Virus record (IMG/VR): IMGVR_UViG_2703718871_000002
Length of the DNA stretch: 19,591 bases
Source of the DNA: a virus
Lineage: Duplodnaviria; Heunggongvirae; Uroviricota; Caudoviricetes
Direction: 5' to 3' (one strand)
Shown: in pieces, positions 19,126-19,591 of the stretch
Numbering within the stretch: the first letter of the stretch is position 1
Layout of the letters: each line of letters begins with the position of its first letter
Made by a program: the position numbers and the translations under genes
The notes under the pieces: generated by a model
The model's database searches: none
Told to the model about the DNA's origin: nothing
The model's input: only the letters and a program-made list of their open reading frames with translations

Positions 19126-19321
19126 AAATGTCTCACAATTCAGACGGTTGACAGTTGTCTGTTTTGCGGGGAGTTTGTTAAAAGAAACTGGCATGGTGAA
19201 TCCCCCTGTGCGGAGGGGCAATCAGCGAGTAGGTATATGGGATAATCGCGGATTCAGGTGCTGGTACTGAATTCACCGGGAGGCACCCGGCACCATGCAA
19301 TGGCACATAGCGCCACTCTCC

Positions 19322-19348
19322 AGCCCCTCTCCGGAGGGGCTTTCTTAT
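19322..19348 (+). terminator. terminator-like hairpin (8-bp GC stem, U-rich tail)
   Basis: AGCCCCTC-TCCG-GAGGGGCT followed by TTCTTAT. Confidence 0.4.
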
Positions 19349-19352
19349 GGAC

Positions 19353-19381
19353 AAAAAAAGCCCGCGCCGGGAGACGCGGGC
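19353..19381 (-). terminator. intrinsic terminator on the minus strand, convergent with the previous hairpin
   Basis: Minus-strand hairpin GCCCGCG-TCTCCCGG-CGCGGGC followed by a 7-U run (plus-strand A-run 19353-19359). Confidence 0.5.
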
Positions 19382-19591
19382 AGCAAGGAATAAACCAACA
19401 AAACGTGAAGTAATATTTCAGCTGGCGAATAATACCCGACAGTAATCACTCTGCGCAATAGCGCGGCCTTTTTCGTATTGCGGGCTGTAGTCTCCCTTCT
19501 GCCATTGTCCTGTAACTTCCGGACTTCAGCCCGTCCCTTATGTGACTCACAACATTATCCCTACCGGGAGGATTCATGGCATTTAAACACT

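What the first reader, a model, noticed from the sequence alone, without database searches (positions are those of the whole stretch)
19126..19575. GC-rich structured non-coding region with convergent terminators: candidate small RNAs
After the tRNA terminator there is no ORF of 60 aa or more, but a series of GC hairpins. A CCCCT...CGGAGGGGC hairpin motif occurs twice (19203-19219 and 19322-19341) and CCGGGAG(G/A) three times (19276, 19367, 19564). A plus-strand terminator-like hairpin (19322-19348) faces a strong minus-strand terminator (19353-19381). An extended -10 element TGgGATAAT (19239-19247) could start a plus-strand RNA of about 95 nt ending at 19348, and a minus-strand TTGCGC-18-TATTAT (19458..19429) could start a roughly 70-nt RNA ending at 19353. 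A GGGAGG-ATG at 19566-19578 probably starts a gene continuing beyond the window.
Basis: seen in the sequence. Interest (0 to 1): 0.45.

Follow-up and report, generated by a model that had tools for sequence, protein, structure and literature searches.

The report
Known prophage convergent small-RNA pair
This non-coding stretch between the prophage tRNA genes and a sialic-acid esterase gene holds two small regulatory RNA genes facing each other, a pair already described and detected experimentally in nearly identical prophages of pathogenic E. coli, so it is real but not new.

Summary
The region is the 'sRNA dyad' that Tree et al. (2014) described between the Q/PR' late promoter and the lysis genes of lambdoid prophages.

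Plus strand, 19162-19352: a full-length member of Rfam family STnc100 (139 bits, cut-off 47). It ends at the 19322-19341 terminator.

Minus strand: an sRNA ending at the 19381-19360 terminator. It is the homologue of EHEC EcOnc08/21/42 and of the EPEC RIL-seq sRNA 'E2348C_1409.E2348C_1408.IGR'.

O157:H7 Sakai prophage Sp4 is 96.6% identical across the region. There, Hfq crosslinking peaks and Northern bands were published for both strands.

Its key positions are kept in diverged variants, and it aligns with the promoter of AsxR, whose start site was mapped.

The ATG at 19576 starts the NanS-p-type esterase gene.

Novelty: already known. The function of STnc100 remains unknown.

The parts
19100..19126 (+). 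Intrinsic terminator after tRNA-Arg(tct). It forms the upstream boundary of the module.
   Evidence: stem GGCTCGC/GCGGGCC followed by T8.
19162..19352 (+). STnc100-family sRNA (Rfam RF02076), the homologue of EHEC EcOnc05 in Sakai Sp4. Closing stem P1 is 19191-19198 with 19291-19298. P2 is 19203-19218, P4 is 19250-19274 and P5 is 19276-19290. A variable linker that may carry the seed lies at 19299-19321.
   Evidence: 139.2 bits against a cut-off of 47, model positions 1-206; the minimum-energy fold reproduces the helices; 97.8% of cells paired on 66 variants, and 13 of 34 pairs show changes on both sides; the EcOnc05 Hfq peak maps inside it.
19322..19348 (+). Terminator of the STnc100 RNA. The hairpin is AGCCCCTC/GGAGGGGCT and the U-tract is interrupted (TTTCTTAT).
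   Evidence: In one search, helix 5 has 4 of 8 pairs with compensatory changes.
19353..19423 (-). Short minus-strand sRNA of about 71 nt, of the EcOnc08 type. The terminator stem is 19381-19360 and the U-tail 19359-19353. A U-rich single strand carries the seed CCUUGCU at 19388-19382.
   Evidence: minimum free energy -21.8 kcal/mol, z-score -2.9; the EcOnc08 Hfq peak maps here; the 3' end of the EPEC homologue and its target motif GGCA(A/G)GG; present in 1121 of 5426 complete E. coli genomes.
19429..19458 (-). Sigma-70 promoter of the short minus-strand sRNA: -35 TTGCGC (19458-19453), 18-nt spacer, -10 TATTAT (19434-19429).
   Evidence: the TTG and the TAnnAT positions are invariant across the EcOnc08-type, L006/L007-type and AsxR loci. 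It aligns with the AsxR promoter, whose start site was mapped (PMC4104026).
19424..19547 (-). Upstream part of the longer minus-strand transcript, covering the EcOnc21/EcOnc42 Hfq peak at about 19433-19518. The EPEC 182-nt form maps to 19534->19353. It is antisense to the esterase 5' UTR.
   Evidence: coordinate mapping, including the +137 shift. (fold).
19554..19582 (-). Promoter-like site ATGCCA-17-GATAAT that could drive the long minus-strand form. Its -35 overlaps the esterase start codon.
   Evidence: The sequence is nearly invariant. Its function is inferred only.
19451..19475 (+). Conserved plus-strand terminator-like hairpin CTGCGCAATAGCGCGG followed by CCTTTTTCG. It contains the -35 of the minus-strand promoter and marks the mosaic breakpoint with the Sp5 (AsxR) version.
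19566..19591 (+). Shine-Dalgarno sequence GGGAGG (19566-19571) and the start (ATG 19576) of the NanS-p-type SASA-family sialate esterase gene. The gene runs off the window.

Best explanation
The interval is the conserved 'sRNA dyad' cassette of lambdoid (Stx-type) prophages. It sits in the moron site of the late operon, after Q, PR'/StxS and the ileZ-argN-argO tRNA genes, and before the nanS-p esterase and lysis genes.

Plus strand. It encodes a highly structured STnc100-family RNA. An 8-bp closing stem encloses four hairpins, followed by a variable single-stranded linker and an intrinsic terminator.

Minus strand. It encodes a convergent Hfq-type sRNA from the promoter TTGCGC-18-TATTAT. This RNA has a small 5' hairpin, a U-rich single strand containing the seed CCUUGCU, and a strong terminator with a U7 tail. 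A longer form of about 180-270 nt also starts upstream, antisense to the esterase leader.

In the lysogen both RNAs are made independently of late transcription and end at their facing terminators. By homology they bind Hfq. The minus-strand RNA pairs through its seed with GGCAAGG-type sites in host and virulence mRNAs; in EPEC these include the cfa and dppA 5' UTRs and tir.

What is shown here: identity with the known families, the structures, covariation and promoter conservation. What is taken from the literature on 96%-identical loci: transcription, Hfq binding and targets. What is inferred: the regulatory outcome, and any function for STnc100.
For: Rfam. STnc100 matches at 19162-19352 with 139.2 bits against a cut-off of 47, E = 2.6e-32, over the full model.

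Identity to studied loci. Window 19086-19591 is 96.6% identical to Sakai Sp4. It is 95.9% identical to EPEC PP6 over 19206-19591, 87% to Sp15 (downstream of stx1B) and 71% to Sp5 (downstream of stx2B).

Published peaks. In Tree 2014 Table S2, EcOnc05 (+, about 222 nt) maps into the STnc100 span. EcOnc08 and EcOnc21 (-, about 271 nt) map to about 19355-19427 and 19433-19518. The text of that paper describes 'convergent sRNA genes' downstream of PR' in eight Sakai prophages, and a review restates the 'dyads'.

EPEC RIL-seq. The sRNA at NC_011601 1444797-1444978 (-) corresponds to window 19353-19534. Its partners include cfa (767 chimeras) and dppA (197), with target motif GGCA(A/G)GG.

Covariation. 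The STnc100 helices are 97.8% paired on 66 variants, with compensatory changes at 13 of 34 pairs and 0 of 500 shuffles as high.

Promoter footprint. The minus-strand promoter positions are conserved across diverged variants and AsxR.

Context. A Q antiterminator (PF03589) lies at 17346-18176, NinG lies upstream, and the esterase, DUF1378 and DUF826 genes lie downstream.
Against: No expression data exist for this exact strain or sequence.

The 5' end of the plus-strand RNA is not defined. No convincing sigma-70 promoter was found: the conserved TTGACA at 19148-19153 has no properly spaced -10. Published sizes of homologues range from 160 to 247 nt.

Minus-strand sizes in the literature (182 nt and about 271 nt) are longer than the 71-nt form favoured by the promoter footprint.

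Covariation in the minus-strand RNA is thin: 2 pairs with double-sided changes.

The predicted seed-cfa duplex lies on the RIL-seq motif, but its energy of -15.7 kcal/mol is no better than for shuffled targets (169 of 500 as good).

The seed here differs by one base from the EPEC and Sakai seed (CCUUGCU against CCUUGCC).

The STnc100 variants were collected by anchoring on the invariant core, so the invariance of P2 and P5 is partly built in.
Confidence: 0.88

Rival explanations
1. The facing hairpins are only a bidirectional transcription insulator, and the interval is just the leader of the esterase and lysis transcript. On this view the RNAs are by-products with no function in trans.
For: The cassette lies inside the PR' late transcription unit, between two modules. 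Three plus-strand terminator-like hairpins lie in series at 19100, 19322 and 19451. The function of STnc100 is still listed as unknown.
Against: Homologues are among the Hfq-bound RNAs in EHEC, and some are destabilised without Hfq. The EPEC homologue of the minus-strand RNA forms specific chimeras with defined mRNAs that share a motif complementary to its seed. The sister RNAs AsxR and AgvB at the same position have proven trans targets. A dedicated promoter is conserved. The multi-helix STnc100 domain covaries, which a plain terminator would not need.
Confidence: 0.07
2. The interval encodes one or more small proteins. Candidates are the 51-aa plus-strand ORF at 19258-19413, the 58-aa minus-strand ORF at 19178-19354, and the RefSeq pseudo-CDS at 19181-19306.
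For: Mechanical ORFs exist. RefSeq places a partial 'hypothetical protein' there. Ribosome-footprint ratios above 1 were reported for some EDL933 STnc100 copies, with an SD-like 'tatgggata' motif.
Against: No reading frame through the invariant core stays open in more than 30 of 66 variants on the plus strand or 38 of 66 on the minus strand. Substitutions are compensatory at the RNA level. The plus-strand ORF would run through two terminators.
Confidence: 0.03
3. The two similar hairpins, P2 at 19203-19218 and the terminator at 19322-19341, swap partners to form an antiterminator. That would make the plus-strand element a cis-acting attenuator of esterase expression rather than an sRNA.
For: Both hairpins share CCCCT..CGGAGGGGC, so each 3' arm is complementary to the other's 5' arm.
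Against: In variants with a different terminator (GGCTCCTCATCGCAGGAGCC, or the Sp5 type) P2 does not change with it. P2 is enclosed by the stable closing stem P1. Discrete terminated RNAs are seen on Northern blots of homologues.
Confidence: 0.02

Closest known systems
STnc100 (Rfam RF02076), also known as EcOnc05 (Sakai Sp4), EcOnc27/sRNA103 (Stx2 phage Sp5) and STnc100_1-11 in EDL933
   Same: It gives a full-length covariance-model match and has the same helices. It occupies the same position, downstream of the moron or tRNAs and convergent with a short sRNA. It is 96.6% identical to the Sp4 copy, which has a published Hfq peak and Northern band.
   Different: The P3 insert and the 3' linker (possible seed) are of the Sp4/Sp15 type, not the Sp5 (EcOnc27) type, so any targets proposed for sRNA103 (fimZ, espA) need not apply. 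The function of the family is unknown.
EcOnc08/EcOnc21/EcOnc42 (EHEC Sakai Sp4 and Sp15), equivalent to EPEC 'E2348C_1409.E2348C_1408.IGR'
   Same: The sequence is about 96% identical. The terminator and U-tail, the convergent position and the promoter are the same, and the seed region is UUAUUCCUUGC.
   Different: The window variant has the seed CCUUGCU instead of CCUUGCC, one extra G in the U-rich tract (GUUGGUUU) and a CCGG loop-closing variant in the terminator. There is no Rfam family and no RefSeq annotation for this RNA.
AsxR (RF02703) and AgvB (RF02702) anti-sRNAs
   Same: They occupy the same slot, convergent with STnc100. They share a homologous promoter whose -35, TTGCGC, lies in the same conserved hairpin. 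They are short Hfq-binding RNAs with a variable 5' part.
   Different: The RNA body and terminator sequence are different, and the covariance models give no match. Their known mode of action is to sponge the host sRNAs FnrS and GcvB. The EcOnc08-type RNA was found paired with mRNAs in RIL-seq.
PasD1/PasD2 (EPEC), equivalent to EcOnc13
   Same: They lie between Q and the esterase or lysis genes. Zhu et al. 2026 argue that they share a fold and an ancestor with STnc100.
   Different: Only a 58-nt stretch at 76% identity is detectable, the Sp3 locus gives no Rfam STnc100 match at the gathering score, and the seed (UGUGAG) is different.

Membership tests
STnc100 (Rfam RF02076) | Covariance-model score at or above the curated gathering score, over the whole model | tested here: met
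   139.2 bits against 47, model positions 1-206 of 206, E = 2.6e-32.
STnc100 (Rfam RF02076) | The consensus helices form and are maintained by compensatory change | tested here: met
   The minimum-energy fold reproduces P1, P2, P4, P5 and the terminator. On 66 variants 97.8% of cells are paired, 13 of 34 pairs change on both sides, and 0 of 500 shuffles are as high. P2 and P5 never vary, so they carry no information on structure.
STnc100 (Rfam RF02076) | Prophage location between the late-gene antiterminator and the lysis genes | tested here: met
   Q (PF03589) lies at 17346-18176, the tRNAs follow, then the RNA, then the esterase, DUF1378 and DUF826 genes.
STnc100 (Rfam RF02076) | Expressed as a discrete Hfq-associated RNA | not testable with these tools
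   Reported for the 96.6%-identical Sp4 copy (EcOnc05, about 222 nt) and for EDL933 copies.
EcOnc08/21/42 and the EPEC 1409-1408 IGR sRNA | Sequence homology to the reference loci on the same strand | tested here: met
   96.6% identical to Sakai Sp4 and 95.9% to EPEC PP6. The published 3'-end sequence aligns base for base apart from 3 differences.
EcOnc08/21/42 and the EPEC 1409-1408 IGR sRNA | Rho-independent terminator with a U-tail, preceded by a single-stranded U-rich seed | tested here: met
   A 9-bp stem with 8 G-C pairs plus U7. The fold leaves the UUUAUUCCUUGCU region only weakly paired.
EcOnc08/21/42 and the EPEC 1409-1408 IGR sRNA | Seed complementary to the RIL-seq target motif GGCA(A/G)GG | tested here: inconclusive
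   The seed is CCUUGCU; the last pair with the target's first G is a G-U wobble, where the CCUUGCC seed gives G-C. The best duplex on the cfa 5' UTR falls on the motif, but its energy is not better than for shuffled targets.
EcOnc08/21/42 and the EPEC 1409-1408 IGR sRNA | Hfq binding and dependence on Hfq | not testable with these tools
   Known from the literature only.
AsxR / AgvB anti-sRNAs (RF02703 / RF02702) | Covariance-model match, with the conserved 42-nt 3' region AGTATCTCATGC..TTGCCCGAACCCAYTCGGGC | tested here: not met
   Neither family matches in 18300-19591 even at E <= 1. The positive control worked: AsxR scores 88 bits in Sakai Sp5.
AsxR / AgvB anti-sRNAs (RF02703 / RF02702) | Position convergent with STnc100, and a shared promoter | tested here: met
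   Alignment A3: the TTGCGC -35 and the TAnnAT -10 are in register with AsxR. AsxR abuts STnc100 in Sp5.
PasD1/PasD2 | Sequence identity to the E2348/69 PasD / Sakai EcOnc13 locus | tested here: not met
   Only 58 nt at 76% identity against the Sp3 locus.
Esr41 (RF02676) | Covariance-model match | tested here: not met
   No match at E <= 1.

The most novel reading that the evidence does not exclude
The STnc100 RNA and the minus-strand RNA may form a swappable 'seed cassette' system.

An invariant scaffold could serve as a fixed frame and recombination junction. It would consist of the five-helix STnc100 core on one side and, on the other, the hairpin that carries the shared -35.

Between these fixed parts, the variable stretches are exchanged among prophages to retarget host regulation. 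These stretches are the STnc100 3' linker and the body of the minus-strand RNA, which comes in EcOnc08, AsxR, AgvB and other types.

The invariant STnc100 core itself may bind a protein or act as a tRNA-like structure rather than act by base pairing. This window's variant (seed CCUUGCU, extra G) would then be an undescribed allele with a shifted target set.
Probability: 0.12. Interest if true: 0.5.

Novelty: already known. Interest (0 to 1): 0.15.

Why it matters
Prophage-encoded sRNAs at this site rewire host regulation in pathogenic E. coli: AsxR acts on haem uptake and AgvB on amino-acid uptake and gut colonisation. Recognising the dyad here prevents two errors. One is annotating it as a pseudogene, as RefSeq does (a pseudo-CDS lies on top of STnc100). 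The other is treating it as a new discovery.

Two open questions remain. What does the very abundant STnc100 scaffold do? What does the EcOnc08-type RNA regulate, given that it is present in about a fifth of complete E. coli genomes yet is unannotated and has no Rfam family? This window adds only one more allele to those questions.

Tried and rejected
1. Plus-strand promoter. I looked for a sigma-70 promoter for the plus-strand RNA. The consensus scan finds none. The conserved TTGACA at 19148-19153 has no -10 at 16-18 nt. The conserved TTTGTTAAAA at 19174-19183 could be a weak extended -10, but this is unproven. The 5' end is left open.

2. Rejected, because it lies inside the RNA and is absent from the Sp5 and Sp15 variants.

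3. Start-site data. I looked for published start sites in the supplement of Sy et al. 2020; no supplementary files are held.

4. Target prediction. RNAduplex of the whole sRNA against the cfa leader gave a non-specific result. The seed-only duplex lands on the RIL-seq motif but is not significant against shuffles.

5. Membership of AsxR, AgvB, Esr41 and PasD. All failed.

6. Coding potential. Rejected.

7. P2-terminator partner swap. There is no co-variation between the two hairpins.

8. A mapping error I corrected. I first placed EcOnc42 on the esterase start codon. Checking AsxR showed that the 2014 coordinates are shifted by about +137 in NC_002695.2 at Sp5 and Sp15, but not at Sp3 and Sp4. 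EcOnc42 actually maps to about 19435-19517.

9. Collection scan. The genome-contig scan with the exact 24-nt core returned only 9 species, so it says little about the true taxonomic range. Salmonella copies differ in the core and were missed.

Full report
**Observation.**
- CCCCTGTGCGGAGGGGC lies at 19203-19219 and AGCCCCTCTCCGGAGGGGCT at 19322-19341.
- CCGGGAGR lies at 19276, 19367 and 19564.
- TTGCGC-18-TATTAT lies on the minus strand at 19458..19429.
- GGGAGG lies at 19566-19571 and the ATG at 19576.
- TGGGATAAT is one base off the stated position, at 19238-19246.

The terminator scan finds the plus-strand hairpin at 19322-19341 and a strong minus-strand terminator at 19381-19360 followed by T7. 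It also finds the tRNA terminator at 19100-19117 and a further plus-strand hairpin at 19451-19466. That makes 6 sites against 1.2 expected. The repeated motifs are rarer than chance. However, the middle CCGGGAG is specific to this window and is not conserved in relatives.

**Context.**
The window is a lambdoid prophage.
- A CI-like repressor, a helicase and primase, NinG, and a Q antiterminator (PF03589, 17346-18176) are present.
- A PR'/StxS-type region follows. It is 96-98% identical to Sakai Sp15 and Sp5.
- Next come a truncated methyltransferase and the tRNA genes ileZ-argN-argO.
- The interval under study follows, then a 674-aa SASA-family (NanS-p-type) esterase gene starting at 19576.

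The sequence is 100% identical to E. coli 2012EL-2448 and two other STEC genomes.

**Plus strand.**
Rfam's STnc100 model (RF02076) matches 19162-19352 over its full length with 139.2 bits against a cut-off of 47. The same family is found at the same place in Sakai Sp4, Sp5 (after stx2B) and Sp15 (after stx1B).

The minimum-energy fold of 19184-19352 reproduces the model. An 8-bp closing stem (19191-19198 with 19291-19298) encloses hairpins P2 (19203-19218), a small variable P3, P4 (19250-19274) and P5 (19276-19290). A linker follows, then the terminator.

I collected 66 distinct variants from E. coli genomes, IMG/VR contigs and eight other species and counted pairs on that structure.
- 97.8% of cells form standard pairs.
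- 13 of 34 pairs change on both sides, and 0 of 500 shuffles reach this.
- Sliding the 3' partners drops pairing to 36-53%.
- P4 has 7 of 8 covarying pairs. The closing stem shows G-C to A-U switches at two positions.
- P2 and P5 are invariant. Part of that is because I anchored the search on them, but the Rfam consensus is also upper-case there.
- The P3 insert and the linker at 19299-19321 are hypervariable cassettes.

I could not define the true 5' end. Homologues were sized at 172-173 nt (PasD), about 222 nt (EcOnc05) and 235/247 nt (EcOnc27).

**Minus strand.**
The terminator at 19381-19360 ends an RNA whose 3' part is nearly identical to the EPEC RIL-seq sRNA 'E2348C_1409.E2348C_1408.IGR'. 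That sRNA lies at NC_011601 1444797-1444978 and is 182 nt long. Its authors equate it with EHEC EcOnc08/21/42.

The EPEC locus is 95.9% identical to window 19206-19591, which places that RNA at 19534->19353. Sakai Sp4 is 96.6% identical. Its EcOnc08 and EcOnc21 Hfq peaks map to about 19355-19427 and 19433-19518.

A caution on coordinates. The 2014 coordinates equal those of NC_002695.2 at Sp3 and Sp4 but are about 137 lower at Sp5 and Sp15, as AsxR shows. With this correction EcOnc42 maps to about 19435-19517.

| Lineage | -35 | Spacer | -10 |
|---|---|---|---|
| Window (EcOnc08 type) | TTGCGC | 18 | TATTAT |
| L007 | TTGCAA | 18 | TATTAT |
| L006 | TTGAAA | 17 | TACTAT |
| AsxR | TTGCGC | 18 | TAAAAT |

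The TTG and the TAnnAT positions are invariant. Tree et al. mapped AsxR's 5' end as a primary start, so the homologous start here is about 19421-19423.

That gives a 71-nt RNA with a 5' mini-hairpin, a U-rich strand carrying the seed CCUUGCU (19388-19382), and a terminator (-21.8 kcal/mol, z = -2.9). Covariation in this RNA is sparse because the variants are close to one another.

A second promoter-like site, ATGCCA-17-GATAAT at 19582..19554, could drive the longer form. Neither AsxR, AgvB nor Esr41 models match the window. This RNA therefore belongs to a sister family that has no Rfam entry and no RefSeq annotation, although it occurs in 1121 of 5426 complete E. coli genomes.

**Mechanism.**
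By homology, both RNAs are Hfq-associated regulators made in the lysogen. RIL-seq in EPEC linked the minus-strand RNA to the cfa and dppA 5' UTRs, tir, emrA and others through the motif GGCA(A/G)GG, which is complementary to the seed. The window's seed predicts a 9-bp duplex exactly at that motif, 135 nt upstream of the cfa start codon, but the energy is not significant on its own. The direction of regulation is unknown. For STnc100 no function is established; the variable linker before the terminator is the likeliest seed.

**Comparison and novelty.**
Tree et al. 2014 explicitly describe 'convergent sRNA genes' downstream of PR' in Sakai prophages Sp3, 4, 5, 9, 10, 11, 15 and 17. Sy and Tree 2021 call them 'dyads of Hfq-binding sRNAs' and note that the reason for the arrangement is unclear. 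Zhu et al. 2026 treat STnc100 and PasD as related prophage sRNAs next to esterase genes. The finding is therefore real but already known. This window adds one allele: a single change in the seed, one extra G, and the Sp4/Sp15-type STnc100 linker.

**Rivals.**
- A pure insulator or leader role is contradicted by the Hfq and RIL-seq data on homologues and by the conserved dedicated promoter.
- Coding potential is contradicted by the lack of a conserved frame.
- A P2-terminator partner swap is not supported, because the two hairpins do not co-vary.

Noticed in passing
window 8489-8576 (-) and 8601-8676 (-): Rfam matches above the gathering score to C4 antisense RNA (RF01695, 77 bits) and isrK (RF01394, 58.7 bits). 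They are adjacent and on the same strand, in the early region of the prophage.
   Followed up: no
window 18357-18680: A PR'-StxS-tR' type region. It is 96% identical to Sakai Sp15, and 18569-18834 is 98.5% identical to Sp5. The hairpin GCCAGCC..GGCTGGC followed by T6 at about 18640-18672 corresponds to the StxS 3' end. Rfam gives only a sub-threshold RprA hit there (28 bits against 70). A second terminator lies upstream at 18437-18458.
   Followed up: partly
window 18680-18795: The remnant of a site-specific DNA methyltransferase gene, annotated in RefSeq as a partial pseudogene, lying between tR' and the tRNA genes.
   Followed up: no
window 19181-19306 (-): In the identical genome, RefSeq annotates a partial 'hypothetical protein' pseudogene directly on top of the STnc100 RNA. 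This is probably an annotation artefact.
   Followed up: partly
L062 6956-7940 and 4984-5200; L063 12509-13655: Some IMG/VR prophage contigs carry four STnc100 copies head to tail within 1 kb, plus a further copy nearby. Each copy has a different P3 insert and 3' linker.
   Followed up: no
L003 (E2348/69 PP6) 1-1350: In EPEC E2348/69 an ISEc13 insertion truncates the 5' part of STnc100; homology begins at window 19206. The convergent minus-strand sRNA is left intact and is expressed.
   Followed up: partly
window ~19446 (alignment A1 columns ~396): A sharp mosaic breakpoint. Against Sakai Sp5 the identity is about 71% upstream and about 97% downstream, exactly at the conserved hairpin that holds the -35 of the minus-strand promoter.
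   Followed up: partly
L017 (888-bp contig labelled Xanthomonas pisi): It holds the exact 24-nt STnc100 core. A very short contig in an unrelated genus is probably enterobacterial contamination of that assembly.
   Followed up: no
L006 and L007: The same sRNA dyad slot lies after other cargo genes (a scabin-related ADP-ribosyltransferase; a DNA methyltransferase) and directly before the holin gene, with no esterase gene.
   Followed up: partly
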